Positions 2,000 through 62,881 of a stretch of DNA of 64,000 nucleotides are shown here, piece after piece. A program made the translations under genes and the position numbers. The stretch covers positions 480,002 through 544,001 of the forward strand of contig JBBTSZ010000002.1 in NCBI GenBank assembly GCA_038064495.1, in the 5' to 3' direction. The notes beneath the pieces are model-generated. The model was not told the DNA's origin. It did not search any database and was given only the letters and a program-made list of their open reading frames with translations. The stretch's first letter is position 1; every line of letters starts with the position of its first letter. The DNA is from Patescibacteria group bacterium. GTDB taxonomy: Bacteria > Patescibacteriota > Minisyncoccia > Phycocordibacterales > Phycocordibacteraceae.

Positions 2000-3280
2000 A
2001 TGACCGACAAGGAGCGACTTTCAACCGAACCCTACAAAGGAGTCCGGGATTTCTATCCAAATGACTGGGCCCAGCTTCAGGCGGTATTTGAAACCCTCCG
2101 AACGACGCTTCGCATGCACGGGTTTGAGGAATACAACGCTTCCCCGCTTGAACCGGCTGAGCTCTACGAAAGCAAGACGAGTGAGGAAATCGTAAGCGAG
2201 CAGACGTTTACATTTACCGACCGTGGCGAGCGGCGCGTCACGCTTCGTCCGGAAATGACTCCGACACTCGCACGCATGGTGGCTGGCAAGCGCCGTGAAC
2301 TCACCTTCCCACTTCGCTGGTTTTCTTTACCAAACCTGTTTCGCTATGAGCGTCCTCAGCGCGGACGCCTGCGTGAGCACTATCAGCTGAACGTTGACCT
2401 CCTTGGCATTCCTGACGCAAAAGCAGATGGTGAGATTATCGTTATCGCTTCTTCTCTTCTGAAAGCATTTGGTGCGTATGATGGTGACTTCACTATCCGC
2501 ATTAATTCTCGTTCACTGATGAACGCAGCGGCAGACGCTCTTGCATATACACCGGAAGAATCAAAGAAGTATCTCCAGCTCCTTGATAAAAAAGCAAAGA
2601 TTTCAGCTGAGGAGTTTGAAACGGCACGAGAAGTGTTCCGCAAAGAGGGTGTGGACGCGCTTGAGTTGATTCTTGCTGGCACGAATACTAACGTGGCAGC
2701 TGAGAAAGAAAAACTGGATGGTCTTATCGCGGCCTTCAGCGCGCGCGGAATGCAGAACGTACTCTACGATCCTTCCATCGTCCGTGGTTTTGATTACTAC
2801 ACCGGTATGGTATTTGAGGTGTACGACACCAACCCTGAAAACACTCGCTCTATGTTTGGTGGTGGCCGCTATGACAACCTCGTCTCACTCTTTGGTGGTG
2901 AGTCTGTGCCAGCGGTTGGTTTTGGTATGGGAGACGTTACCCTCCTTGATTTCCTCACCACGCACGACTACGCGCCAAAAGCTTCCTCAGCTCCCACGCT
3001 CTTTCTTGGCACTCCATCAGAGGGAGATATTGGAGCGGCACAGGAGTTTGCCACCACGCTACGTGAAGAGGCTGGTATCTCGGTGCTCGTGAACATCACC
3101 GGGAAATCACTCGGCGACCAAATCCGTGAAGCAAACAAGCGCTCCATCCCGTATTTCATTGCGTATGGTGCTGAAGAACTTTCAAGCGGGATGATGAAGC
3201 TGAAAAAACTGGATGAAGTTTCTGAAAAGGAAATGGCGGCAGGTGAGGTGCTGGATATTCTTTCACATCTTCCGAAATAA
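2000..3280 (+). CDS. hisS: Histidyl-tRNA synthetase
   Basis: Class II HisRS motifs (GVRDF, RYERPQRGRLREHYQ, GGGRYD) and a C-terminal anticodon-binding domain. Confidence 0.95.
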   Translation: MTDKERLSTEPYKGVRDFYPNDWAQLQAVFETLRTTLRMHGFEEYNASPLEPAELYESKTSEEIVSEQTFTFTDRGERRVTLRPEMTPTLARMVAGKRRELTFPLRWFSLPNLFRYERPQRGRLREHYQLNVDLLGIPDAKADGEIIVIASSLLKAFGAYDGDFTIRINSRSLMNAAADALAYTPEESKKYLQLLDKKAKISAEEFETAREVFRKEGVDALELILAGTNTNVAAEKEKLDGLIAAFSARGMQNVLYDPSIVRGFDYYTGMVFEVYDTNPENTRSMFGGGRYDNLVSLFGGESVPAVGFGMGDVTLLDFLTTHDYAPKASSAPTLFLGTPSEGDIGAAQEFATTLREEAGISVLVNITGKSLGDQIREANKRSIPYFIAYGAEELSSGMMKLKKLDEVSEKEMAAGEVLDILSHLPK

Positions 3281-34574: not shown

Positions 34575-34905
34575 ACCGCCCCATCATATGGGGCGGAAAG
34601 TGGTGATTCAGGCAACCTACGGCGACTCCTTTTTCCCGCAGGATTCAGAGTCTTGTCTCCAGCACGGGTGGTGTTTCATTGGCGACTTCCGTCTCCCACC
34701 TAGTATGCGCACAATTGAATGCGCAGAGGTACGCGATGCCAGATAAGCTAACGATCCGCCCCAGAGGAATCGAACCTCCGGACATTCCGACACCATCGGA
34801 ACATCGGCTGTTAAGGAGTCGAACCCTCTTTACCCTCACCAACAAGGAACAGCAGGACCTCAAGCGTTTGCCTGAATCACCGACCGCAAGTCTACCCTGA
34901 CCGCG
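34575..34905 (-). ncRNA. tRNA-like / tmRNA-like structured RNA region (identity unresolved) with its own terminator
   Basis: On the minus strand there are two GGTTCGAnTCC T-loop-like motifs, a GGU-anticodon-like hairpin, the 3' acceptor-like GGGGCGG-A, and a 14-bp long-range helix (GGTGATTCAGGCAA/TTGCCTGAATCACC). A short frame GCC AAT GAA... (ANETPPVLETRL*) is present. A terminator lies at 34566-34597. Confidence 0.3.
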
Positions 34906-51976: not shown

Positions 51977-53719
51977 ATGGCCTCACTCGAGGAGAAACGT
52001 CATACGCTCGCCCACCTGCTCGCCGCAGCGGTGCTGGAGCGCTACCCGAACGCGAAAACAACGATTGGCCCAGCCGTTGATAACGGGTTTTACTACGACT
52101 TTGATTTCTCCGGTGGCGAAGCTCCAAAAGAAGCTGACTTGGCTTCCCTTGAAGAAGTGATGCGTGAACTTCTTTCCTCCTGGAATGAAATGACCGGCAC
52201 TGAGGTGTCTGAGAAAGATGCGCGAGACCGTTTTAATGCAAACGAATACAAGCGAGAGATTATTGATGGCATCGTAGCCGCGAATGAGACTATTACGCTC
52301 TATACCGCTGGCAACTTCACGGACCTGTGTCGTGGTGGACACGCAGAGAATCCCAATCACGAAGTGAAGGCAGACTCCTTCACGCTTGACCGTATCGCGG
52401 GTGCGTATTGGCGTGGCGACGAGACGAAACCAATGCTCACGCGCATCTACGGACTCGCCTTTGATACGAAAGCGGAACTGGAAGCCTATAAAGAACAGCA
52501 GGAAGAAGCGAAGAAGCGTGACCACAAGAAACTTGGCCGTGAACTTGATCTCTTTGTGTTCTCAGAACTCGTAGGTCCAGGACTTCCCCTCTTCACCCCA
52601 AAAGGAACAATGGTAAGAGACCTGCTCGATGAATTTGTATGGGAACTCCGTAAGCCGTATGGTTATGAAAAAGTAGAGATTCCACACATCACGAAAAAAG
52701 ACCTGTATGAGACGTCAGGTCACTGGGACAAATTTAAAGACGAACTGTTCCGTATCACAACTCGTGAGGGACACGAATTTGCGATGAAGCCGATGAACTG
52801 TCCGCACCATACACAAATCTACGCTCGTAAGCAGTGGAGCTACCGTGAACTTCCCCAGCGTTACAGCAATACGACGACGTGTTATCGGGATGAACAATCA
52901 GGTGAACTCTCCGGCCTATCTCGTGTTCGGGCATTCTCTCAAGACGACGCGCACGTGTTCTGTCGCGTAGCGGATGTAAAAACAGAATTCCTTAAGGTCT
53001 GGGATATTATTCATGCGTTTTATCCAACGTTTGGATTTGACCTACAAGTTCGTTTTTCTACCCATGACCCCGAGCATCCAGAAAACTATCTTGGTGATCC
53101 ATCGGTATGGAATACAGCTGAAGCAGTGCTCGCAGAAGTTCTTGAAGAGAAACAGATTGAAGCAATTCCGGGTCTTGGTGAAGCGGCTTTTTACGGTCCG
53201 AAGCTTGATTTTATTGCCAAGGATTCACTCGGCCGAAGCTGGCAGGTAGCAACCATTCAGCTTGATATGAATCAGCCTGAGCGCTTTGACCTCACCTGTA
53301 TTAATGAGGAAGGTAAGAAGGAACGTATCGTGATGATTCACGCAGCCATTATGGGTTCTATCGAACGCTTCCTTTCCATCCTTATTGAACACACTGCAGG
53401 AAATCTCCCCGTATGGCTCTCACCGGTCCAAGTGCGCGTGCTTCCCGTTTCAGATAAACAAGCGGAGTATGCGGCTTCGGTAGCTACTTCCTTACAGACT
53501 TCAGGTGTGCGTGCTGATGCAGATATGTCGAACGAATCTCTTGGTAAGAAAATCCGTGCTGCGAAAACAGAGAAGATTCCCTACCTACTCGTTGTAGGTG
53601 ACACGGAGATAGCTGACAGTACCGTCACCGTTGAAATGCGTTCTGGAGAAAAGATGGGTGCCCTTTCGCTTCAAGACTTCGCTGACCGTATCACTAAGGA
53701 GATTCAGGAGCGCGCGTAA
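51977..53719 (+). CDS. thrS: Threonyl-tRNA synthetase lacking the N-terminal TGS domain
   Basis: Editing-domain HxxxH (RHTLAHLLAAAV), class II motifs and an anticodon-binding domain. Confidence 0.93.
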   Translation: MASLEEKRHTLAHLLAAAVLERYPNAKTTIGPAVDNGFYYDFDFSGGEAPKEADLASLEEVMRELLSSWNEMTGTEVSEKDARDRFNANEYKREIIDGIVAANETITLYTAGNFTDLCRGGHAENPNHEVKADSFTLDRIAGAYWRGDETKPMLTRIYGLAFDTKAELEAYKEQQEEAKKRDHKKLGRELDLFVFSELVGPGLPLFTPKGTMVRDLLDEFVWELRKPYGYEKVEIPHITKKDLYETSGHWDKFKDELFRITTREGHEFAMKPMNCPHHTQIYARKQWSYRELPQRYSNTTTCYRDEQSGELSGLSRVRAFSQDDAHVFCRVADVKTEFLKVWDIIHAFYPTFGFDLQVRFSTHDPEHPENYLGDPSVWNTAEAVLAEVLEEKQIEAIPGLGEAAFYGPKLDFIAKDSLGRSWQVATIQLDMNQPERFDLTCINEEGKKERIVMIHAAIMGSIERFLSILIEHTAGNLPVWLSPVQVRVLPVSDKQAEYAASVATSLQTSGVRADADMSNESLGKKIRAAKTEKIPYLLVVGDTEIADSTVTVEMRSGEKMGALSLQDFADRITKEIQERA

Positions 53720-54042: not shown

Positions 54043-56091
54043 TTATCCTTCAATCGTATGGAGTGCACGCGTGAGTGCGAGCTTTACTCCGGTAACGCCT
54101 GCTGAGTAGCGAGCATCAACCGCCGTTGAGAGTGACTCAATAAGTCGCTCAAGAAACGATGGTGAGCAATCTACACAGATGCGTGCAATTTCAGGATGGA
54201 CCTTGGTGCCATCAAGTTTTGCCCGGTAGGCATCATCAAGCGCAACAATGACATGCGAAAGGAACGCCTCAGCATCGCCACCTGCCTGATTGATACTGCG
54301 AACCATCTTGAAGACCGTCTCCTTCTCGCCTGCCATGAGCGCGGTGAGAAATGCCGGCACGTCTGAAGGAGTTTCCTTTGCGACATGCGGTGCATGCTCA
54401 ACCACAGGTACCTGGTGAATTGATACAGCGACTGGAGCTGGAGCGACAGGAATAACGGGTAGCTCTTCCTCACGAGAGAGTCCCTTCACAATGTCTTCAA
54501 TAGACAGTGCGCGTTCCTCACCTGCGAATGATTTGAATCCTTCGTAGGAACTGTGGGTTGTGCGCGTCGTGACCGGAGCACTCACGGCATGCACCATTGG
54601 TGTCGTGTGCGCAACCGTATGCGCTACGGGACGATGTACCGATGTATTTTCTACAACGTGCGTACTCTGGCCAGTCACCTTTTTAAAGGCAACCGGAAGG
54701 GCTCCGAAGAGGATGAGATAGGCAAGAGCGAGGCTCCAGAGGATAAGCATGAGCCAGTAGATGGCGGTGCCGATCGGACCAAGATCAAGACCGGTGTATG
54801 GAAGATCTGAGAGATAGACGTACGAGAGTGGCTGATCTGGTGGACTTGGAAGCTGCGTTAGTGACACGTGCGGGTTGTTGCTCGTACTTCCATGACGGAC
54901 ACGCACTTCAAGTGTTGCTGAACAAGAAATGATTTGACCATTGTATCCGTAGAAGGTTCCTTCGTAACGATAGGTGCCTCGCCCGGGTGACACGGTGCGT
55001 GAACCAGTTTGGCCGGTGTAGCCACCACCGTTACTAATGTAGACCTGGCGAACGTTTTCGCTACCCCACGTAAGTTCAGCATCGTCACCGTCATAAATAG
55101 TTGAAGGGCTCACACTCATGCGGCAGGTAGGACCAACGGAAGGTGTGTCTACCGATACGCTTGTTGTACACGTAACTGTTCCACCAGCGCCTGTGGCGGT
55201 GAGGGTGTAATTCGTAGAAACAGATGGACTCACACTACGAGAACCATCCTGCGCTACTGCACCAATACCCCGGTCAATGCTGACACTGGTTGCGTTACTC
55301 GTGTTCCAAACGAGCGTACTGACTCCACCAGTTGAAATGCTGTTTGGCGACGCTGAAAGCGTACACGTTGGTGCGTTTGGTGGAGGTGGTGGTGTATTCG
55401 TTACCGTAATTGGTGCAGAACAATAAACCGTACCCCCAGGGCCAAATGCCGTGAGCGTATACGTTGTTGAGTTGTTTGGTGAAACGGTGCGAACACCTGA
55501 GGTCCCGACACCGCCAATTCCGTTATTGATGGAAACTGACGTTGCATTACTGGTGGTCCACGAAAGAGTGCTACTACCTCCCCGCTCGAGTACCTGTGGG
55601 TTTACCGTGAGCGTACACGTTGGTGCGTTTGGTGGCGGGGGCGGGGGTGGAAGTGTCGTGACGGTGACGGTTGTTGAACAATTCGTACTACCTCCAACAC
55701 CCGTAACGGTCATAGTGTACGTTGTCGTTTGAGTTGGAACGACGGTACGGGCACCGCTACCTGTGCCGACTGAACCGATACCTTGGTTGATTGTTGCACT
55801 TGTCGCATTATTCGTGGTCCAAGAAATCGTAGAAGCACCGCCAAGCGTAACCGAGCTTGGATTTGAAGAGAGAGAACAGACTGGGGGTGGAACGAGTACG
55901 GGCGGAATGATTGGTGGTGGAGGTACCACGCAGCATGGCGGACCAACGATGATGGCATGCACCGACTGTGGCGTGACGAATCCTCCAGCGAAGGCCATGC
56001 CCACACCGATTGCAAACACCGACACCACGGTGAATACACCGGTCAATACCGGTCGGTTCTTGGTTTCTGAAATTGTTTCGATGCTGTTCAT
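54043..56091 (-). CDS. Surface protein with about four tandem Ig-like repeats joined by poly-Pro linkers, a TM helix and a cytoplasmic C-terminal domain
   Basis: N-terminal signal anchor; repeated ~95-aa units (...SWTTNNATS...TYTLT...) separated by PPPPPNAPTCTL; a second TM helix near residue 430. Confidence 0.55.
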   Translation of the reverse strand: MNSIETISETKNRPVLTGVFTVVSVFAIGVGMAFAGGFVTPQSVHAIIVGPPCCVVPPPPIIPPVLVPPPVCSLSSNPSSVTLGGASTISWTTNNATSATINQGIGSVGTGSGARTVVPTQTTTYTMTVTGVGGSTNCSTTVTVTTLPPPPPPPNAPTCTLTVNPQVLERGGSSTLSWTTSNATSVSINNGIGGVGTSGVRTVSPNNSTTYTLTAFGPGGTVYCSAPITVTNTPPPPPNAPTCTLSASPNSISTGGVSTLVWNTSNATSVSIDRGIGAVAQDGSRSVSPSVSTNYTLTATGAGGTVTCTTSVSVDTPSVGPTCRMSVSPSTIYDGDDAELTWGSENVRQVYISNGGGYTGQTGSRTVSPGRGTYRYEGTFYGYNGQIISCSATLEVRVRHGSTSNNPHVSLTQLPSPPDQPLSYVYLSDLPYTGLDLGPIGTAIYWLMLILWSLALAYLILFGALPVAFKKVTGQSTHVVENTSVHRPVAHTVAHTTPMVHAVSAPVTTRTTHSSYEGFKSFAGEERALSIEDIVKGLSREEELPVIPVAPAPVAVSIHQVPVVEHAPHVAKETPSDVPAFLTALMAGEKETVFKMVRSINQAGGDAEAFLSHVIVALDDAYRAKLDGTKVHPEIARICVDCSPSFLERLIESLSTAVDARYSAGVTGVKLALTRALHTIEG

Positions 56092-56223
56092 AGTGATTTC
56101 TTCTAACGCTTGTAAGTAATGAGTAACAAATAAAATGCCCCAGCCACAGAGTGGGGTATGAAAAAGGGGAGGTTCCTAAGCGGGTGCGAACACCCGCTTA
56201 GGATTTTGAGAAGTGAGTGCACC

Positions 56224-57228
56224 TTACGGGAACGGTCGGAAGTCCCAGGGCAGAAGATCTGCCCTCTTATTCCATTCAGTTCCTGATCGGTTCTCCCGGT
56301 AATCCTCCCACGAGGTAACACCTTGGCTGCGAGAGTGTAGGCGACCTGTCCGTTCAAGACAGAACGCTACAATCATTTCCTGCGCAGGTGTAGCTGCCTC
56401 ATGCGGAACGCGAACGATATACTCGCCCGTTTCCGTAATTGGGATGCTCGCAGCACCCTGGATGTCCTTGCGGTAAAACGGCACGAGTCGCCTCATGTCG
56501 CAATACTGCGGACAATAGGCATCCATGTTGCGATAGATCGTGTCATTCGGACCTTTGTAGGCCCAACACCGATCCTCTACATCCACAGTGCCGTTGCGAT
56601 ATATACCAACCATCACGCGAAGGTCGCCACGATTCACATCCGCTTGGAAGTGAATCTCGTCGCAATCTGCACGAACAGGTGCAGCGAGCGCACGGTATTT
56701 GCCGAGACTCGGGTTCGCGCAATGCGCGAACATCACGAACTTACCGGTCTCGGGATTAATCCACTTCGCCTCACCTTTCTTCAGCGTCCGGTGCACGCAC
56801 TGGATGATGAAGGTGAAGGTTGAACCGCTCGGGACCATACATGCCGACCAGTATTCCTCTTTGTCGGTTGCCGTAACAGCAACCAAGGAACGCAGATAGG
56901 CGGGCAGGTCGGCAAGCGAATTGAGGTGCGTCGTTTTCGGGTCGACAATCTTCAATGCTCCGAAGAGCGCCGAAAGGGTGCCGCACGCACGTTTCCGTGC
57001 GTCCGAACGTGCGCATTTTTCCGGCTCTAGCAGCGAGCTTTCGCCCTTGCCACCTGCAAGTGCACGTTCAACTTTGACCGCCAAGTCGCGAGGCGACTGA
57101 TTATCTAGGCTGAATGATAGGTGCGGGTGGTGTACTTTCGCCGTTTTGGTTGGTGATGCAGCCGAAGCTGTATGTCCTCCCACTGCCGTAATCAGCAGCG
57201 CGAGGGCGACGAGCCAAACTTTGCTCAT
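56224..57228 (-). CDS. Secreted Cys-rich hypothetical protein
   Basis: Signal peptide MSKVWLVALALLITAVGGHTASA; multiple Cys. Confidence 0.5.
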   Translation of the reverse strand: MSKVWLVALALLITAVGGHTASAASPTKTAKVHHPHLSFSLDNQSPRDLAVKVERALAGGKGESSLLEPEKCARSDARKRACGTLSALFGALKIVDPKTTHLNSLADLPAYLRSLVAVTATDKEEYWSACMVPSGSTFTFIIQCVHRTLKKGEAKWINPETGKFVMFAHCANPSLGKYRALAAPVRADCDEIHFQADVNRGDLRVMVGIYRNGTVDVEDRCWAYKGPNDTIYRNMDAYCPQYCDMRRLVPFYRKDIQGAASIPITETGEYIVRVPHEAATPAQEMIVAFCLERTGRLHSRSQGVTSWEDYRENRSGTEWNKRADLLPWDFRPFP

Positions 57229-57330
57229 TCTCTTAACTCCCCTATAGCGCCGCTCCGAAATGGAACGGCTTTGGTTGAAGGAACAACTCTCTTTCTCTTT
57301 GTGTTTGCAAAGAGTTAGCCGAAAACGAAC

Positions 57331-57987
57331 CTAGTTCGTTACAGGGTAACTCCCAACAAGCTTTGCAATGACCACGAACCGGTCGCTCTTGCTCGCAAAC
57401 GAATCACAGGTCACGAGCGTGAGCTTATTACCGGAGACGGACAAGGGGATGCCATCTTTCTTGGCAGAGGCACTTGCGACGGTCTCCACGGCGTAGATAT
57501 AGACGCGGTCCTTGCCCGTGACGAGGATTTGGTCCCCGGTCTTCAGGTTCTGAATCCCGTCAAAGGTCTTGAACGCCTGGTTGTGGACGACCGGCAAGTA
57601 GCTTGAATGGCCAAACATGACCACGTTCGCTCCCGGCGTACCAAGAAGACCTGAGGTTGGATAGCGCACCGCGCCAACCAACAGATTTTGATCAAGCACC
57701 GCTGGATCTGCGGTCGTTGGATTTGCAACGCTCGCAACCAAGTTGATGCTTGGAATCTGAATCTTTGTTGGAAACTCGCCGGGCACTTTTGCCGTTGCGC
57801 TTGCAATCGGTCCTGTTGCACTGGCGGTGTCCGTAAGCGTCGTGCTGTTTGGGACCAGGTCAAAGAAACCGAGCACAATAAACGAACTCAAAAAAACGAA
57901 TAGGGTAAGGCCGAGGAAGCTCCACTTCCTCTCAAGAATTGGTGAGCTGCCCTTACGGGAGCTCAAACTATGGTTGTTTCCTGGCAT
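57331..57987 (-). CDS. srt: Sortase-family transpeptidase
   Basis: N-terminal TM anchor, His (VVMFGHSSY) and an LVTCDSF (TLxTC-type) Cys motif. Confidence 0.75.
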   Translation of the reverse strand: MPGNNHSLSSRKGSSPILERKWSFLGLTLFVFLSSFIVLGFFDLVPNSTTLTDTASATGPIASATAKVPGEFPTKIQIPSINLVASVANPTTADPAVLDQNLLVGAVRYPTSGLLGTPGANVVMFGHSSYLPVVHNQAFKTFDGIQNLKTGDQILVTGKDRVYIYAVETVASASAKKDGIPLSVSGNKLTLVTCDSFASKSDRFVVIAKLVGSYPVTN

Positions 57988-58080
57988 ATCGTCCTACTAA
58001 CAAATACACCATAAACTGCGTACTGTCAAGTCTTACGACCCGCCACCTCCCAAGGAGAGGTTTGACAAAAAATAAACAGT

Positions 58081-59199
58081 GTGGTAAACAGGTGCTATAT
58101 GGAAACGACTACAATTCAGTCCAAGAAGGGCCCAATGAACGGTCTTGCCGTCGTAGGGTTCGTAGCCCTTATTATCATTGGTATTTTGACGGCTATTTAC
58201 GCCGCAAGCTTTATTCCTAAGGCTCTTTCGCGATTCTCATCTGCGAACGTATACCTTTCAAATCTTTCTGCAACGGATGGAACGGACACGACAGCGACTA
58301 CGCCAACAACTCCTACCGTCGCGACGACGCCAGAACCAACGGTACCGGTCTCCCCTACGCAAGCGGCGCCAGCAGCACCCGTTGTGACTACGCCTACCTA
58401 CGTTACTCCTGTCTACACAGCACCTACACCTACCGTTGTACGTGTACCCGCTCCACAAACGTATTATTCAGGTTTGCCTGACCTTTCGGTCACCATCACG
58501 GACGTTGGATATCTTCGTACCAACAGCATTGATTCGTTTGTATCAGCCAACTCAGTTCCTCGTGGCTATCAGGGAGCTGTTCGCTACACAGTTCGCAACG
58601 AAGGCACCAATGTGTCTGGAAACTACCGTGTTGAGATTCGCGTCTCTACGAACGGCGGAAACGATACCGACAGCGTGAGTGGATCAAATCTCGTACCAAA
58701 CCGTAGCGTCACCGGAACCGGTGTGTTTGATGCGAACAGTTCTGGTACAGCAACCATTCGCATTACCGTTGATGCTCGTGACGATGTAGATGAGTCTCGC
58801 GAAAACAACAATGACGATTCTGACAGCATTCGTTTGAACGGTTCCGATAACTCTTCAAACGATAGTTACGACAGTAATGGTCGTTATTGCCCATACGGAA
58901 CCTATCATGCGAACAATCGCTACTACTGCAACACGTCAGACTCTGGCACTGATTCTTATGATAGTAATGGTACCTACTGCCGATACGGTACGTACTACTC
59001 AAATGGCCGCTACTATTGTGACTCTTCAAATACCACGAATAATTCCTCGTACGACAGTAATGGAAATTTCTGCTCCTACGGAACGTACTACTCGGGTAGT
59101 CGCTACTATTGCAACACCTCTGGCAGTCAGTGGTACACACGAGACCAAAACTGTACGTATGGAAACTACTACAACGACGGAACAAGTTACTGCTACTAA
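58081..59199 (+). CDS. Membrane-anchored surface protein with a Thr/Pro-rich stalk and four Cys/Tyr-rich repeats
   Basis: TM helix; TTATTPTTPTVATTPEP linker; four repeats of SYDSNGxYCxYGTYYSNGRYYCNTS. Confidence 0.55.
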   Translation: MVNRCYMETTTIQSKKGPMNGLAVVGFVALIIIGILTAIYAASFIPKALSRFSSANVYLSNLSATDGTDTTATTPTTPTVATTPEPTVPVSPTQAAPAAPVVTTPTYVTPVYTAPTPTVVRVPAPQTYYSGLPDLSVTITDVGYLRTNSIDSFVSANSVPRGYQGAVRYTVRNEGTNVSGNYRVEIRVSTNGGNDTDSVSGSNLVPNRSVTGTGVFDANSSGTATIRITVDARDDVDESRENNNDDSDSIRLNGSDNSSNDSYDSNGRYCPYGTYHANNRYYCNTSDSGTDSYDSNGTYCRYGTYYSNGRYYCDSSNTTNNSSYDSNGNFCSYGTYYSGSRYYCNTSGSQWYTRDQNCTYGNYYNDGTSYCY

Positions 59200-59261: not shown

Positions 59262-61337
59262 CTACACGTCTAGGTTTGCAAGCTTTGCATTGGACTGAAT
59301 AAATGACTTTCGACTTGGCACATCAGTACCCATGAGGATGTCAAAAATGCGATCCGCTTCAGACGCATCGTCCACTGTCACCCGCTTCAGGACACGACGT
59401 TCCGGGTCCATGGTGGTTTCCCACAGCTCAGACGCATTCATTTCTCCAAGACCTTTGTAGCGCTGTATGGTGAACTTCGTTGCCTTCTTTGCGATTGCCG
59501 CTACTTCTTCTTCCTCGGTTGGTTCAGGTCCTTCCTCATCAAGCACGGCTTCAATCACTTCCGCGTCTTTGCCGACAATCTTCTCCTTTTCTTCGTCAGA
59601 GTACGCGTAGTACACCTCCTTACCGCGCTTTATTTTGTAGAGTGGTGGCTGTGCAATATAGATGAATCCCCCATCAATCACCGCGCGGAAGTGGCGGTAG
59701 AACAACGTCAAAATAAGGGTACGAATGTGAGCGCCGTCCACATCAGCATCCGTCGCAATGATGACCTTGTGGTAGCGAAGTTTGGAAAGGTCAAAGATGT
59801 CGCCAATCGCGGTACCAAGTGCAATCACGAGATTCTTAATCTGCTCACTGGCGAGCATCTTATCTAGGCGTGCGCGTTCAATATTCAAAATCTTTCCGCG
59901 AAGCGGGAGGATGGCCTGGGTACGGCGATCACGTCCGGTTTTTGCGGTACCACCGGCGGAGTCTCCCTCCACAATAAAGAGTTCTGACTCCTCAGCTGAT
60001 TTACTCTGACAATCAGCAAGCTTACCGGGAAGCGTCATGCCCTCAAGAGCGCCCTTACGAAGCACCGAGTCTTTGGCGGCCTTTGCAGCCTTACGCGCTT
60101 TAAGGGCGAGCAGTACCTTGTTCACAATGGCACGCCCGTCGTCAGGATTCTCCTCAAGGAAGCTTGCAAGCGCAGAACCAAACACCGTCGCAACCGCGCC
60201 CTGTGCCTCCACGGAACCGAGCTTGCCTTTGGTTTGTCCTTCAAACTGAATCTCCGGCATTTTTACGGAAATAACCGCAGTGAGTCCCTCAAGCACATCG
60301 TCACCCGTAAAGTTTTCTTCACTCTCTTTCAAAATACCAGCAGAGCGTCCGTAGGTATTTAGGGTTCGAGTAAGTGCCGTCTTAAAACCGGTGACGTGGG
60401 TTCCCTGCTCCGGGTTGTAGATATTGTTTGCAAACGCCATTAAGCGCGGCGTGATGTCGTCGGTGTATTGAAAGGCGACCTCAACGGCAACGTCGTTCTC
60501 GGTCTGGTCAACATAGAAAATATTTTTGTGTGCAACGGTCTGATGTTTGTTATAGAACCCAATGAGTGAACGGAGACCTCCTTCAAAGAAAAAGGACATG
60601 GACGGCATTTCAAGAGCGAGTTCGCGCACATACCACACGCTGTCGGTATCAAGTTTGCCTGCGGTGCGCGCGTCTATAACACAAATACGGGTGCCCTTCA
60701 CGAGGTAGGCCTGCTGACGAAGGTGCGCCACAATCTTCTCCCAATTCCAACTGATGCCTTCTTTGAAGATGGTCGCGTCTGGCTTGAACATCACAACAGA
60801 ACCTTGATGAGAAGTCTTTCCGACTACCTTGACCTTTGCCTTTGCCTTTCCTATCTCGTACTCCTGCATGTGAATGCTGCCGTCTTTGTGGACGAGCACT
60901 TTGGTGTGTTCAGAAAGTGCGTTTACCACGGATGCTCCCACACCATGGAGACCTCCGGAAACTTTGTAGCCTGAGTCCTCACCTCCGAACTTACCGCCGG
61001 CGTGAAGCGTGGTCATGATGGTCTCCAGTGCTGAGACTTTGGTCTTTGGATGAATACCGACTGGAATACCGCGACCGTTATCTACGACGCGCACGTAGCC
61101 GTCTGGGAGAAGTACGACTTCAATATCGTTCGCAAAACCACCCATCGCCTCGTCGCGTGAGTTATCAAAAATCTCCCAAATGAGGTGGTGCAGACCGTCG
61201 GGGCCGGTGGTCCCGATGTACATGCCCGGACGCTTACGGACTGGTTCAAGACCCTCAAGAACGGTAATACTTGAGGCATCGTAATCGCCGCTCTTGGAAG
61301 CGGCTTTTTTAGCAGTTTTAACCTCCTTTTTGGCCAT
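59262..61337 (-). CDS. gyrB: Type IIA topoisomerase B subunit (DNA gyrase B / ParE)
   Basis: GHKL ATPase motifs plus a TOPRIM EGDSAGG and PLRGKILN. Confidence 0.9.
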   Translation of the reverse strand: MAKKEVKTAKKAASKSGDYDASSITVLEGLEPVRKRPGMYIGTTGPDGLHHLIWEIFDNSRDEAMGGFANDIEVVLLPDGYVRVVDNGRGIPVGIHPKTKVSALETIMTTLHAGGKFGGEDSGYKVSGGLHGVGASVVNALSEHTKVLVHKDGSIHMQEYEIGKAKAKVKVVGKTSHQGSVVMFKPDATIFKEGISWNWEKIVAHLRQQAYLVKGTRICVIDARTAGKLDTDSVWYVRELALEMPSMSFFFEGGLRSLIGFYNKHQTVAHKNIFYVDQTENDVAVEVAFQYTDDITPRLMAFANNIYNPEQGTHVTGFKTALTRTLNTYGRSAGILKESEENFTGDDVLEGLTAVISVKMPEIQFEGQTKGKLGSVEAQGAVATVFGSALASFLEENPDDGRAIVNKVLLALKARKAAKAAKDSVLRKGALEGMTLPGKLADCQSKSAEESELFIVEGDSAGGTAKTGRDRRTQAILPLRGKILNIERARLDKMLASEQIKNLVIALGTAIGDIFDLSKLRYHKVIIATDADVDGAHIRTLILTLFYRHFRAVIDGGFIYIAQPPLYKIKRGKEVYYAYSDEEKEKIVGKDAEVIEAVLDEEGPEPTEEEEVAAIAKKATKFTIQRYKGLGEMNASELWETTMDPERRVLKRVTVDDASEADRIFDILMGTDVPSRKSFIQSNAKLANLDV

Positions 61338-61726
61338 ATTTCGTAGTTAGAGTATAGCATATTTACTACCCCACGTCTTCCTTCTTTTTGTATGAAAAGG
61401 GCCCCACGAATGCTCGTGAGGCCCTGCTGAAGAAGGATTCGAATCCTGGCTTACGCGTACTGGGAATGCTCCCGATGCTGGCTCGGATCGCCTCCCCTCT
61501 GGATTCGCCGTCGTTCCTTCTTGGCCTGGATTTGGTTGCTCGACTTGCCAGGGGCCTTGCTGGTTGTTTGGCCTTTGTTGACCTTATGAGTCAAGTGACA
61601 CCTCCTTATATCGTGAGCGATAGTGCCCACAATGTACGAGACTACGGCATGCAATGATTCTGGTCAATTGGGGTGCGAACTACGTTTGCTTGAATAAGCA
61701 CCCATTATTAACTACACTCTCTACAC

Positions 61727-62881
61727 ATGGACATATCAATTGATAAAGGAGACGAGCTACGTCTACGCAGCGAACTTGAGGGACGTACCGACTTTGAGGC
61801 AGCACGCATCAGGCGCTACCTCGCTATGCCGGACCTGTCCCGTACGCCGGGCAGTCCGCTTGCTGAGATTGTGGATCGTGTTAAAGCCGTTCCAGAGCTT
61901 GCTGGATTCGATGTCATTGAAATACCGGAAATTGTTCCGGCTGACGTTTCATTTGATTTGTTTGACTTCCCCGCCGACCACCCTGCACGCAGTCACTCTG
62001 ACACCTATTATGTTGACGATACCAACATTCTTCGCACACACGATACGGTCTTTTGGTACTATTACCTCAATCACCCTACGATTAAGGAGCGCATCGCGAA
62101 AGGAGAATCTATGGGTGCGCTCTGCTACGGCAAGGTGTATCGAAAAGACGAGATAGATAGTCGCCATATGAATATCTTTCATCAGCTTGGTGGGTGGTAC
62201 ATAACACCAGCCAGCCAGCCTATCGTTGCAGATGACCTTAAAAAAGTCCTCGGCGATATTGTGCACTCGGTCTTTGGTCCTGAGATGATCTACCGAGTAA
62301 ACGATGACACGTTCCCATATACCGACCCGTCCTTTGAGGTAGAAGTGAGCGTCAAAGGTACCGCTGCAGAAGGCCCTGCACGTGGTGACTGGCTTGAGGT
62401 TCTTGGTAGTGGTATGCCGAAGGCCTCCGTTATGGAAGCGCTCGGTGGTAGTGGCTACCATGGGTGGGCATTTGGGTTTGGTATTGAACGACTCGCCATC
62501 ATCTCCATGGCACTCCCCGACATTCGCCTTCTCTGGTCTGACGATGAGCGCATCAAGCGACAACTGGTACTCGGTCAAGCGTTTACACAAGTGAGCAAAT
62601 ATCCGCCGATTACTCGAGACATTTCTTTTATCGTTACGGATGATTTTATTCCCAACGATTACTTTGAACTCGTGCGCGATATCGCGGGCGACCTTGTTGA
62701 GGAAGTTGCACTCATTGACCGCTACGAGAATGTAGAGAAATTCGGTGCTGGAAAGGTCAGCTATGCCTACCGCATTACCTATCGCTCTTTAAATCGTACA
62801 CTCACGAGCGAAGAGATAGATATCCTCCACAAGAAGCTTGAAACCGCGACCGCTGAGACCTACAGCGCCACAGTTCGTTAA
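61727..62881 (+). CDS. pheS: Phenylalanyl-tRNA synthetase, monomeric (mitochondrial-like) type: PheS catalytic core fused to C-terminal FDX-ACB anticodon-binding domain
   Basis: HPARSHSDTYY, GKVYRKD, FHQLGG and FGIERLAI class II motifs; the C-terminus SKYPPITRDISFIV...IDRYEN...GKVSYAYRITYRSLNRTLTSEEID matches the PheT FDX-ACB domain. Confidence 0.8.
   Translation: MDISIDKGDELRLRSELEGRTDFEAARIRRYLAMPDLSRTPGSPLAEIVDRVKAVPELAGFDVIEIPEIVPADVSFDLFDFPADHPARSHSDTYYVDDTNILRTHDTVFWYYYLNHPTIKERIAKGESMGALCYGKVYRKDEIDSRHMNIFHQLGGWYITPASQPIVADDLKKVLGDIVHSVFGPEMIYRVNDDTFPYTDPSFEVEVSVKGTAAEGPARGDWLEVLGSGMPKASVMEALGGSGYHGWAFGFGIERLAIISMALPDIRLLWSDDERIKRQLVLGQAFTQVSKYPPITRDISFIVTDDFIPNDYFELVRDIAGDLVEEVALIDRYENVEKFGAGKVSYAYRITYRSLNRTLTSEEIDILHKKLETATAETYSATVR

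What the first reader, a model, noticed from the sequence alone, without database searches (positions are those of the whole stretch)
61727..62881. Monomeric mitochondrial-type PheRS (PheS core + FDX-ACB anticodon-binding domain)
The catalytic alpha-subunit core is fused to a C-terminal domain matching the PheT C-terminal FDX-ACB fold, the architecture of monomeric mitochondrial PheRS; pheT is not adjacent in this window. Bacterial PheRS is normally an (alpha-beta)2 heterotetramer encoded by adjacent pheS-pheT.
Basis: partly seen in the sequence, partly recalled or inferred. Interest (0 to 1): 0.6.

Follow-up and report, generated by a model that had tools for sequence, protein, structure and literature searches.

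The report
Single-chain mitochondrial-type PheRS in Parcubacteria
An ultra-small groundwater bacterium (Parcubacteria/CPR) encodes phenylalanyl-tRNA synthetase as one short chain built like the mitochondrial enzyme instead of the usual bacterial two-subunit tetramer; hundreds of related species share this form, and in most of those examined the amino-acid pocket is altered.

Summary
ORF 61727-62881 (+, 384 aa) is a PheRS class II catalytic core (PF01409, E 2e-48) fused to an FDX-ACB anticodon-binding domain (PF03147, E 2e-21). It lacks the N-terminal coiled coil of bacterial PheS. An AlphaFold model (pLDDT 88) superposes over its full length on human mitochondrial PheRS (TM 0.74). The window and 10 kb beyond contain no other pheS/pheT-like sequence. 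The gene is not an oddity of one genome: 267 GTDB species (Kaiser-, Nomura-, Zambryski-, Vogel-, Colwellbacteria) carry it, usually next to gyrB, and it is about as conserved as GyrB. In a rough tree the bacterial proteins form their own clade, sister to the mitochondrial/phage-type group. The protein fails the curated cutoffs of pheS_mito, pheS and the 'mystery ligase' SrmL. The clade has a remodelled pocket: the motif-2 Glu is Gly155, Asp106 appears in exact covariation, and Trp110 replaces a Gln. In human mtPheRS these Gln and Glu positions hydrogen-bond misactivated m-Tyr. Best reading: the housekeeping, editing-free monomeric PheRS of this lineage. Genome-wide absence of pheS/pheT could not be tested. 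I found no paper describing it.

The parts
61727..62881 (+). Complete gene for the single-chain PheRS (384 aa plus stop)
   Evidence: ORF list. The same gene was called on three public contigs. More than 120 protein clusters at 72-91% identity have the same length and domain pair.
61727..61852 (+). Short N-terminal helical hairpin (aa 1-42; invariant R20, R27, R30-Y31-L32) in place of the roughly 100-aa coiled coil of bacterial PheS
   Evidence: E. coli PheS aligns only from its residue 108 onwards. The AF2 model shows helices at 8-18 and 23-33. Invariant columns come from alignment A1.
61853..62563 (+). Class II PheRS catalytic core (aa 43-279, PF01409)
   Evidence: Pfam E 2.1e-48. Foldseek matches bacterial PheRS alpha cores with target-normalised TM about 0.8.
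62030..62056 (+). LRTH-D106-T-V-F-W110 segment. His105 and Thr107 are retained. Asp106 is clade-specific. Trp110 replaces the Gln (human Gln124) that contacts m-Tyr.
   Evidence: Alignments and counts. Role of Gln124 from PMC3275996.
62129..62194 (+). Motif 2 (aa 135-156, GKVYRKDEIDSRHMNIFHQLGG). Arg139 and Gln153 are conserved. Gly155 occupies the position of the otherwise universal Glu/Asp (human Glu159).
   Evidence: The motif-2 loop at residues 142-146 is the only low-pLDDT segment of the model.
62312..62332 (+). FPYTDPS phenyl-ring pocket strand (aa 196-202). Phe196 and Thr199 are conserved. Tyr198 stands where most PheRS have Phe.
62357..62383 (+). Subclade-specific 9-residue insertion GTAAEGPAR (aa 211-219)
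   Evidence: Present in 37 of 80 species loci and in all 121 closest sequences; absent from all other groups.
62462..62494 (+). Motif 3 (aa 246-256, GWAFGFGIERL) with the specificity Ala248 (E. coli Ala294) and Arg255
   Evidence: The Ala294/Ala314 specificity role is from PMC3275996.
62516..62593 (+). Interdomain linker (aa 264-289, PDIRLLWSDDERIKRQLV...), which aligns with the linker of mitochondrial PheRS and with the C-terminal end of E. coli PheS
62594..62878 (+). FDX-ACB ferredoxin-fold anticodon-binding domain (aa 290-384)
   Evidence: Pfam PF03147 E 2.1e-21, profile positions 1-94 of 94. Matches the C-terminal domain of PheT chains in the PDB and of E. coli PheT. The model shows beta-alpha-beta-beta-alpha secondary structure.
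61338..61726 (.). Divergent intergenic region shared with gyrB; no recognisable leader, T-box or Shine-Dalgarno-like motif
   Evidence: Sequence. No Rfam match even at E <= 1. One weak sigma-70-like site at 61595-61624, not above the number seen in shuffled sequence.
59262..61337 (-). gyrB, the conserved divergent neighbour
   Evidence: Pfam domains on the called gene. Present in 66 of 80 related species loci and full-length in 56, usually immediately next to the PheRS gene.

Best explanation
This is the working, housekeeping phenylalanyl-tRNA synthetase of a large Parcubacteria (CPR) clade, built as a single chain. The class II core (aa 43-279) binds Phe and ATP, makes Phe-AMP and transfers Phe to tRNA-Phe. 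The fused FDX-ACB domain (aa 290-384) reads the GAA anticodon, a job done by the C-terminal domain of the beta subunit in ordinary bacteria. By analogy with human mitochondrial PheRS, the anticodon-binding domain packs on the core in a closed resting state and swings open to bind tRNA. There is no B3/B4 editing domain, so fidelity must come from the synthetic site. In this clade that site is remodelled: Gln to Trp110, motif-2 Glu/Asp to Gly155, and Thr to Asp106 in compensation. I infer that this removes the two hydrogen-bond partners that stabilise m-Tyr in the human enzyme while keeping a carboxylate near the substrate. Shown here: architecture, fold, conserved catalytic residues, clade-wide distribution, strong purifying selection, and absence of pheS/pheT locally. 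Inferred: monomeric state, Phe specificity, being the only PheRS in the cell, and the fidelity role of the substitutions.
For: The domain pair and its boundaries are clear. The best sequence and fold match is human mtPheRS over the full length in the closed form, from a confident model (pLDDT 88.4, pTM 0.82). The motif-2 Arg139, Gln153, Phe196, Thr199, Ala248 and motif-3 Arg255 are invariant across all groups compared. 267 GTDB species representatives encode a relative, and the best 80 have 60-80% identity and carry Kaiser-, Nomura-, Zambryski-, Vogel- and Colwellbacteria names. gyrB is adjacent in 66 of 80 loci, which points to vertical inheritance. Mean identity to the window protein is 66.9%, against 71.8% for GyrB in the same 56 genomes. 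In the 16 genomes that also have the nearby class II aaRS, PheRS averages 64.4% against 52.0% for that aaRS, a level of constraint expected of an essential gene in genomes under 1 Mb. No canonical PheS or PheT core was found in the window, the next 10 kb, or 1.26 Mb of flanks from the 80 species. The covariation is exact: D106/W110/G155 in 78 of 80 species and T106/W110/D155 in 2 of 80. In human mtPheRS, Gln124 and Glu159 hydrogen-bond the meta-OH of m-Tyr (PMC3275996).
Against: The rest of the genome was not searchable, so a canonical pheS-pheT pair elsewhere is not excluded. The 80 flanking regions are largely syntenic and therefore sample the same neighbourhood repeatedly. The protein scores below the curated equivalog cutoffs of pheS_mito (214 against 258) and pheS (149 against 237). 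The motif-2 acidic residue, otherwise universal in the PheRS sequences compared, is lost, which could mean altered chemistry rather than a fidelity adaptation. A related protein occurs in an Oligoflexia MAG, where I would expect, from general knowledge and untested here, a normal PheST to be present as well; if so, the single-chain form can also be an extra copy. No tRNA-Phe gene was available to examine identity elements. Distances in the model could not be measured, so the Asp106/Gly155 compensation is inferred from covariation only.
Confidence: 0.7

Rival explanations
1. It is an accessory PheS-like paralog that coexists with a normal PheS-PheT pair elsewhere in the genome and has a different or specialised job. 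Examples would be charging under oxidative stress, resistance, or a non-translational ligation, like the curated bacterial 'PheS-related mystery ligase SrmL'.
For: NCBIfam holds a bacterial full-length model of this architecture, called a mystery ligase, and the query matches it at 209 bits over profile positions 32-345 of 349. A relative exists in an Oligoflexia MAG in a non-translational neighbourhood. The active site has lost the motif-2 Glu. Whole-genome absence of pheST is untested.
Against: The SrmL score is well below its cutoff of 300, and none of 20 diverse relatives scanned reaches it. The gene is present in at least 267 species of a lineage with very small genomes (829-kb and 813-kb near-complete chromosomes). 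It keeps conserved synteny and is about as conserved as GyrB, which is unusual for an accessory gene. All other catalytic, Phe-pocket and FDX-ACB signature residues are retained. No second PheS or PheT appeared in any sequence examined.
Confidence: 0.17
2. It is a monomeric aaRS-like enzyme whose amino-acid specificity has shifted away from Phe because of the Gly155/Asp106/Trp110/Tyr198 changes.
For: Clade-wide replacement of the motif-2 acidic residue and of a pocket Gln, plus Tyr198 in place of Phe.
Against: The residues that shape the phenyl pocket and set Phe specificity are unchanged: Phe196, Thr199 and Ala248, the equivalent of E. coli Ala294 (PMC3275996). The 155-to-106 carboxylate swap covaries exactly, as expected if the same function is being preserved. 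Sister bacterial sequences with the ancestral Asp155 are otherwise very similar: P0121 at 63% identity, and L051 and L080 at 62-65%. A cell still needs a PheRS.
Confidence: 0.06
3. It is a recent transfer of a eukaryotic mitochondrial FARS2-type gene into one bacterium, or a contaminating or chimeric assembly.
For: The best solved relative is human mtPheRS.
Against: The gene sits among bacterial housekeeping genes (gyrB, rpoB/C-sized ORFs, dnaE, rpoD, dnaG, HisRS). It was recovered on independent assemblies and in 267 species. In the NJ tree the bacterial proteins form a clade with 95% bootstrap support that is sister to the mitochondrial/phage-type group, not nested inside it. The protein has no presequence.
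Confidence: 0.03

Closest known systems
Mitochondrial phenylalanyl-tRNA synthetase (human FARS2, PDB 3CMQ/3TUP; 'PheRS-M' in AARS Online, PMC11580382; NCBIfam TIGR00469)
   Same: It has the same two-module architecture (PheS-type class II core plus C-terminal FDX-ACB), with no coiled coil and no B3/B4 editing domain. The linker is homologous. The full-length fold matches the closed form at TM 0.74-0.77 and rmsd about 3.5 A. Motif 2/3 and Phe-pocket residues are conserved.
   Different: It is encoded in a bacterial (Parcubacteria) chromosome and has no presequence. It forms a separate clade and scores below the TIGR00469 cutoff (214 against 258). It lacks the insertion that splits the human alignment between residues 155 and 165. 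Human Gln124 and Glu159 correspond to Trp110 and Gly155, with the new Asp106. It has a distinct N-terminal helical hairpin and, in the closest subclade, a 9-residue insertion.
Canonical bacterial (alpha-beta)2 PheRS (PheS TIGR00468 plus PheT TIGR00472; e.g. E. coli 3PCO, T. thermophilus 1PYS)
   Same: The catalytic core is homologous to PheS (32% identity to E. coli residues 108-326). The C-terminal domain is homologous to the last domain of PheT (27% identity to E. coli residues 699-794).
   Different: It is one chain of 384 aa instead of about 330 plus about 800 aa. There is no N-terminal coiled coil and no B1-B7 domains, so no editing site. It is not next to a pheT. Its pheS score of 149 is below the cutoff of 237.
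PheS-related mystery ligase SrmL (NCBIfam NF051887)
   Same: It is a bacterial full-length family whose 349-position profile aligns to the query across both domains (positions 32-345).
   Different: The query scores 209 bits against a cutoff of 300. None of 20 relatives scanned qualifies. I found no publication on SrmL, so its biology could not be compared.
Single-chain PheRS of huge phages and of other bacteria seen here (P0137/P0279 on a 340-kb phage-like contig; GenBank huge phage LR745206.1; a code-25 CPR lineage, P0130; an Oligoflexia MAG, P0125)
   Same: All have the same domain pair and similar length, with no presequence.
   Different: The phage-type proteins pass the pheS_mito cutoff and group with the mitochondrial clade. 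P0130, P0127, P0125 and P0121 group with the Parcubacteria clade but keep Asp at position 155.

Membership tests
Monomeric mitochondrial-type PheRS (PheRS-M / TIGR00469) | PheS-type class II catalytic core | tested here: met
   PF01409, residues 43-279, E 2.1e-48.
Monomeric mitochondrial-type PheRS (PheRS-M / TIGR00469) | FDX-ACB anticodon-binding domain fused to the C-terminus of the same chain | tested here: met
   PF03147, residues 290-384, full profile, E 2.1e-21.
Monomeric mitochondrial-type PheRS (PheRS-M / TIGR00469) | No alpha-subunit coiled coil and no beta-subunit editing (B3/B4) module in the chain | tested here: met
   E. coli PheS aligns only from its residue 108, and only PheT residues 699-794 align. 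There are no other Pfam domains.
Monomeric mitochondrial-type PheRS (PheRS-M / TIGR00469) | Full-length structural similarity to solved mtPheRS | tested here: met
   Foldseek 3CMQ/5MGW: E about 2e-33, TM 0.74-0.77, rmsd 3.5 A over about 395-410 columns. Model pLDDT 88.4.
Monomeric mitochondrial-type PheRS (PheRS-M / TIGR00469) | Score at or above the curated equivalog cutoff (258.35 bits) | tested here: not met
   214.1 bits. The sister sequence P0121 reaches 264 bits.
Monomeric mitochondrial-type PheRS (PheRS-M / TIGR00469) | Placement inside the mitochondrial (eukaryotic) clade | tested here: not met
   In the NJ tree it falls in a separate bacterial clade with 95% bootstrap support, sister to the mitochondrial/phage-type group. 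The genomic context is bacterial.
Monomeric mitochondrial-type PheRS (PheRS-M / TIGR00469) | Active as a monomer and charges tRNA-Phe without a beta subunit | not testable with these tools
   This needs biochemistry. Only architecture and fold support it.
Monomeric mitochondrial-type PheRS (PheRS-M / TIGR00469) | It is the only PheRS of its compartment or cell (no pheS/pheT elsewhere) | not testable with these tools
   None was found in the 64-kb window, the next 10 kb, or 1.26 Mb of flanks from 80 species, but whole genomes could not be read.
Canonical bacterial PheS (TIGR00468) | Score at or above the cutoff (237.45 bits), an N-terminal coiled coil, and a partner pheT, usually adjacent | tested here: not met
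   148.6 bits. The N-terminus has only 42 aa before the core. No pheT lies in the window.
PheS-related mystery ligase SrmL (NF051887) | Score at or above the curated cutoff (300 bits) | tested here: not met
   208.9 bits. The best of 20 relatives scores 274 bits.

The most novel reading that the evidence does not exclude
A whole class-level clade of Parcubacteria, and probably other CPR lineages, has discarded the universal bacterial (alpha-beta)2 PheRS together with its editing site. These bacteria would live with a 384-aa single-chain enzyme whose synthetic site was re-engineered (Gln to Trp110, Glu/Asp to Gly155, Thr to Asp106) to reject m-Tyr and Tyr without proofreading. This bacterial single-chain lineage, sister to the mitochondrial enzymes, would mark the prokaryotic origin of the mitochondrial PheRS architecture rather than that architecture being a eukaryotic invention.
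Probability: 0.25. Interest if true: 0.75.

Novelty: new variant of a known kind. Interest (0 to 1): 0.55.

Why it matters
PheRS is the textbook case of an aaRS that is a heterotetramer in bacteria, with the monomer described as a mitochondrial speciality (PMC3275996, PMC11580382).

- **Minimal translation apparatus.** A large free-standing bacterial clade using the single-chain form would show that the beta subunit and its editing site are dispensable for a cellular translation system.
- **Origin of mitochondrial PheRS.** It would supply a bacterial sister group for testing where the mitochondrial enzyme came from.
- **Fidelity without editing.** The pocket substitutions provide a natural experiment in fidelity without proofreading.
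- **Annotation and completeness.** Some NCBI records call these proteins 'hypothetical', and they fail the pheS and pheS_mito equivalog models. From my own knowledge, not checked here, the pheS and pheT TIGRFAM models are used as bacterial marker genes. If so, these genomes would look as if they lack PheRS, and completeness estimates would be biased.
- **Engineering.** A compact, editing-free bacterial PheRS could also be useful for genetic-code engineering.

Tried and rejected
- **Literature.** Seven full-text searches combined monomeric or mitochondrial-type PheRS, CPR/Patescibacteria/Parcubacteria, FDX-ACB, SrmL, pheT and TIGR00472. I also looked inside five papers. None describes a bacterial single-chain PheRS. 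The Cedars paper on Parcubacteria C7867-001 is not held.
- **Free-standing PheT-derived editing protein.** A weak tblastn hit of E. coli PheT residues 210-433 to window 2552-3271 (E 0.84) turned out to be HisRS, so it was rejected.
- **SrmL membership.** Rejected on score for the query and for 20 relatives.
- **Regulatory RNA upstream.** No T-box or leader: no Rfam hit even at E <= 1.
- **ARAGORN 'tRNA-Stop(tta)' at 34755-34852.** No Rfam support, so it is treated as a false positive.
- **Phage carriage of the CPR-type gene.** No IMG/VR contig was found with close-relative patterns.
- **Core-only representatives as unusually close canonical alpha subunits.** They are fragments of mitochondrial-type proteins.
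- **Whole-genome test for pheS/pheT.** Walking along contigs by exact-protein look-ups adds only about 10 kb per look-up, so I did not pursue it. The 80 flanks are mostly syntenic, so their lack of pheST carries little statistical weight.
- **Asp106-Gly155 distance.** It could not be measured because model coordinates are not exposed.
Full report

Yes. The window contains an ATG-initiated ORF at 61727..62881 on the + strand encoding 384 aa. Pfam finds two domains and nothing else:
- tRNA-synt_2d (PF01409) at residues 43-279, E 2.1e-48.
- FDX-ACB (PF03147) at residues 290-384, covering all 94 profile positions, E 2.1e-21.

A tblastn search with E. coli K-12 PheS and PheT (fetched as L004) gives two alignments. 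PheS residues 108-326 align to query residues 44-280 at 32% identity (E 6e-32). PheT residues 699-794 align to query residues 288-384 at 27% identity (E 2.7e-5). The chain is therefore a PheS core without the N-terminal coiled coil, joined directly to the last domain of PheT.

The same search finds no other PheS- or PheT-like sequence in the 64-kb window or in the 10 kb beyond it (L001/L002). Every ORF of 550 aa or more in the window is something else: an AddA-like helicase-nuclease, a histidine kinase, RNase R, SMC, DnaE, a class II aaRS of the 2b type, DnaG, GyrB and the RpoB/RpoC-sized ORFs. The one exception is a 681-aa ORF with no Pfam hit, and a real PheT would hit B3_4, B5 or FDX-ACB. 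A weak PheT hit at 2552-3271 turned out to be HisRS.

**2. Where does it come from?**

The identical protein is encoded on a 118-kb contig of MAG GCA_964357455.1 and on a 296-kb contig from a Hainich groundwater 0.1-um-fraction assembly. The surrounding genes are bacterial housekeeping genes: gyrB divergently upstream, and a GT2 glycosyltransferase, EF-Ts, S2, RF1, L31 and L25 downstream.

A search of 5.8 billion protein clusters returned more than 120 clusters at 72-91% identity. Nearly all are 384 aa long, and all carry PF01409 plus PF03147. Where named, they come from Parcubacteria or Patescibacteria. Some are called 'phenylalanyl-tRNA synthetase alpha chain' and some 'hypothetical protein'.

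A scan of one genome per GTDB species found 267 species encoding a relative. The best 80 have 60-80% identity and include MAGs named Candidatus Kaiserbacteria, Nomurabacteria, Zambryskibacteria, Vogelbacteria, Colwellbacteria and Paceibacteria. Two lie on near-complete chromosomes of 829 kb and 813 kb. NCBI taxonomy places Kaiserbacteria in the Parcubacteria group of the Patescibacteria.

**3. Is it a constrained, vertically inherited gene?**

gyrB is present in 66 of the 80 loci, usually immediately next to the PheRS gene. In 56 genomes where both genes are full length, the PheRS is on average 66.9% identical to the window protein and GyrB is 71.8% identical. In the 16 genomes that also carry the neighbouring class II aaRS, the PheRS averages 64.4% identity and that aaRS averages 52.0%. 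This degree of constraint, and retention across hundreds of species with very small genomes, is what an essential gene would show.

**4. Structure.**

An AlphaFold2 model built from a 33-sequence family alignment (A1) has mean pLDDT 88.4 and pTM 0.82. The only low-confidence segment is the motif-2 loop at residues 142-146.

Foldseek against the PDB gives the following:
- The top six hits are human mitochondrial PheRS in the closed form (3CMQ, 5MGx, 8P8X), with E about 2e-33, TM 0.74-0.77 and rmsd about 3.5 A over 393-412 columns.
- The tRNA-bound open form 3TUP matches less well as a rigid body (TM 0.58).
- Bacterial alpha chains match only the catalytic core of 240-280 columns.

Sequence search of the PDB agrees: human mtPheRS scores E 5e-56, the best bacterial alpha chain 5e-32, and PheT chains match only through their last roughly 100 residues.

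**5. Relationship to other single-chain PheRS.**

An exhaustive HMMER search of 1.84 billion 50%-identity representatives gave 181 hits below 1e-30. Outside the query's own group, the nearest are a few bacterial-type sequences:
- P0121, at 63% identity.
- P0126 and P0127.
- P0125, from an Oligoflexia MAG.
- P0130, whose gene has 13 in-frame UGA codons that fall on conserved glycine columns, so it comes from a genetic-code-25 CPR lineage.

Most of the remainder are proteins with N-terminal presequences, which I infer to be eukaryotic mitochondrial PheRS. There are also roughly 350-aa presequence-less proteins that pass the pheS_mito cutoff. One of these lies on a 340-kb contig with phage-type genes, and a GenBank huge phage of 634,780 bp has a full-length match.

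I built a neighbour-joining tree of 57 sequences on 351 columns, with 100 bootstraps and E. coli PheS as the only outgroup. The Parcubacteria clade has 82% support, and 100% with P0121 added. All bacterial-type sequences together have 95% support and are sister to the mitochondrial/phage-type group. Both groups sit on a long branch away from E. coli PheS. The tree is rough: it is a distance method with a single outgroup. It argues against a recent capture of a eukaryotic gene, but it does not settle the direction of transfer.

**6. Curated family membership.**

The query scores below all relevant NCBIfam equivalog cutoffs:
- pheS_mito: 214 bits against a cutoff of 258.
- 'PheS-related mystery ligase SrmL': 209 bits against a cutoff of 300.
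- pheS: 149 bits against a cutoff of 237.

None of 20 diverse relatives reaches the SrmL cutoff. The protein therefore works like a mitochondrial-type PheRS by architecture and fold, but it is not a member of the curated mitochondrial equivalog, of canonical PheS, or of SrmL.

**7. Active site.**

Several residues are identical in all groups compared: the motif-2 Arg139, Gln153, Phe196 and Thr199 in the FPxT strand, Ala248, and the motif-3 Arg255. Ala248 is the equivalent of E. coli Ala294 and T. thermophilus Ala314, whose mutation relaxes specificity (PMC3275996).

Three positions differ:
- **Position 155.** The acidic residue ending motif 2 (FHQxE/D) is Gly155 in all 121 closest sequences and in 78 of 80 species. 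It is Glu or Asp in every mitochondrial-type, phage-type, other bacterial single-chain and E. coli sequence compared.
- **Position 106.** This is Asp exactly when position 155 is Gly. It is Thr in the two species that retain Asp155 (L051 and L080) and in P0121. That pattern is a perfect carboxylate swap.
- **Position 110.** This is Trp throughout the bacterial single-chain clade, except for Arg in P0130. E. coli has Gln here, and Gln is the commonest residue in the mitochondrial-type group (21 of 42).

By the alignment to human mtPheRS, Gly155 corresponds to Glu159 and Trp110 to Gln124. The structural review PMC3275996 states that the meta-hydroxyl of misactivated m-Tyr is hydrogen-bonded to exactly these two residues in human mtPheRS. 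[quoted passage not shown]

My inference, which is not shown, is that an enzyme without an editing domain has removed the two polar partners of m-Tyr from its synthetic site. It has kept a carboxylate nearby through Asp106. Tyr198, in place of the usual Phe, is shared by most of the bacterial clade. A 9-residue insertion (GTAAEGPAR, residues 211-219) marks only the closest subclade, being present in 37 of 80 species.

**8. Mechanism proposed.**

The core activates Phe with ATP and transfers it to tRNA-Phe. The FDX-ACB domain recognises the anticodon. The two modules are joined by a linker homologous to that of mtPheRS, so I expect the same closed-to-open domain movement. The short, conserved, Arg-rich N-terminal hairpin (R20, R27, R30 invariant) may contribute to tRNA binding in place of the lost coiled coil, but this is speculation. 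There is no editing.

I put the probability that this is a functional single-chain PheRS at about 0.85, and the probability that it is also the only PheRS of the cell at about 0.7.

**9. What remains open.**

No PheS or PheT core appears in 1.26 Mb of flanks from 80 species. Because synteny is conserved, however, these flanks are not independent samples of each genome. The relative in the Oligoflexia MAG warns that single-chain forms might also exist as extra copies, since I would expect that lineage to have a normal PheST as well (general knowledge, untested here).

**10. Novelty.**

I found no paper describing a bacterial or CPR single-chain PheRS. Reviews and the AARS Online classification present the monomer as the mitochondrial form (PMC3275996; PMC11580382). 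The sequences are already in public databases under generic names, so this is an undescribed variant of a known kind rather than a new kind of system. The distinguishing features are a bacterial host, a separate clade, and a remodelled pocket.

Noticed in passing
L079:9504-9935 (also L057:9516-9929 and L066:7458-7874): In 3 of 80 related species, a stand-alone tRNA_bind gene of about 144 aa (PF01588, E 9e-18) sits immediately upstream of the single-chain PheRS gene. It is 36% identical to the B2 domain of E. coli PheT (residues 41-153). It could be a trans-acting tRNA-binding helper or a YtpR/Trbp111-like protein. It is absent from the window.
   Followed up: partly
L005:10001-11047 (340-kb ENA contig); GenBank LR745206.1:613869-614858: A 348-aa presequence-less single-chain PheRS that passes the pheS_mito cutoff lies on a 340-kb contig with phage-type genes (PhageMetallopep, PcfJ, SNF2). 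A GenBank huge phage of 634,780 bp also has a full-length match. So huge phages appear to carry the single-chain form.
   Followed up: partly
L008:9463-10833 and L009:154-1524: A 456-aa single-chain PheRS (P0130, 32.5% GC locus) has 13 in-frame UGA codons that fall on conserved glycine columns (one is Gly in 56 of 56 homologues). It therefore belongs to a genetic-code-25 CPR lineage (Gracilibacteria/Absconditabacteria type). The database translation with Trp at those positions is probably wrong.
   Followed up: yes
L007:10001-11245: A 414-aa member of the bacterial single-chain clade is encoded in an Oligoflexia MAG (GCA_019694465.1) between a beta-lactamase-like gene and hypothetical genes, and is annotated as hypothetical. 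It may be an extra copy beside a normal PheST.
   Followed up: no
window 34755-34852 (-): ARAGORN calls a 98-nt 'tRNA-Stop (anticodon tta)' here, overlapping ORFs next to the RNase R gene. Rfam finds no tRNA or other family there even at E <= 1, so it is probably a false positive. Rfam supports no tRNA gene anywhere in the 64-kb window.
   Followed up: yes
window 61338-61726: The divergent gyrB-PheRS intergenic region is 389 nt here, against a median of about 140 nt in related species. It has no Rfam match and no Shine-Dalgarno-like motif before the ATG, and it contains a GGGCC...GGCCC inverted repeat near 61400-61425.
   Followed up: partly
window 54043-59199: There is a probable cell-surface gene cluster. 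It comprises a 372-aa CARDB-domain protein with Thr/Pro-rich and repeated Cys/Tyr-rich 'YDSNG-YC-YGTYY-RYYC' units (58081-59199, +), a sortase (57331-57987, -), and two ORFs of 334 aa and 682 aa with no Pfam hit (56224-57228 and 54043-56091, -). In MAG GCA_964357455.1 the gene at the position of the long ORF is called as two pieces (358 and 134 aa), whereas the ENA contig has one 698-aa gene.
   Followed up: no
window 61727-62881 and its homologues: Family members are labelled 'hypothetical protein' in some NCBI records. The protein fails the NCBIfam equivalog cutoffs of pheS, pheS_mito and SrmL, so automated annotation may report these genomes as lacking PheRS.
   Followed up: partly
window 2000-3280 (+) and 51977-53719 (+): Two further class II aaRS genes lie in the window: HisRS (PF13393 plus HGTP_anticodon) and a 580-aa tRNA-synt_2b plus HGTP_anticodon enzyme (ThrRS- or ProRS-like). 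The latter is much less conserved among relatives (52% identity) than the PheRS.
   Followed up: partly
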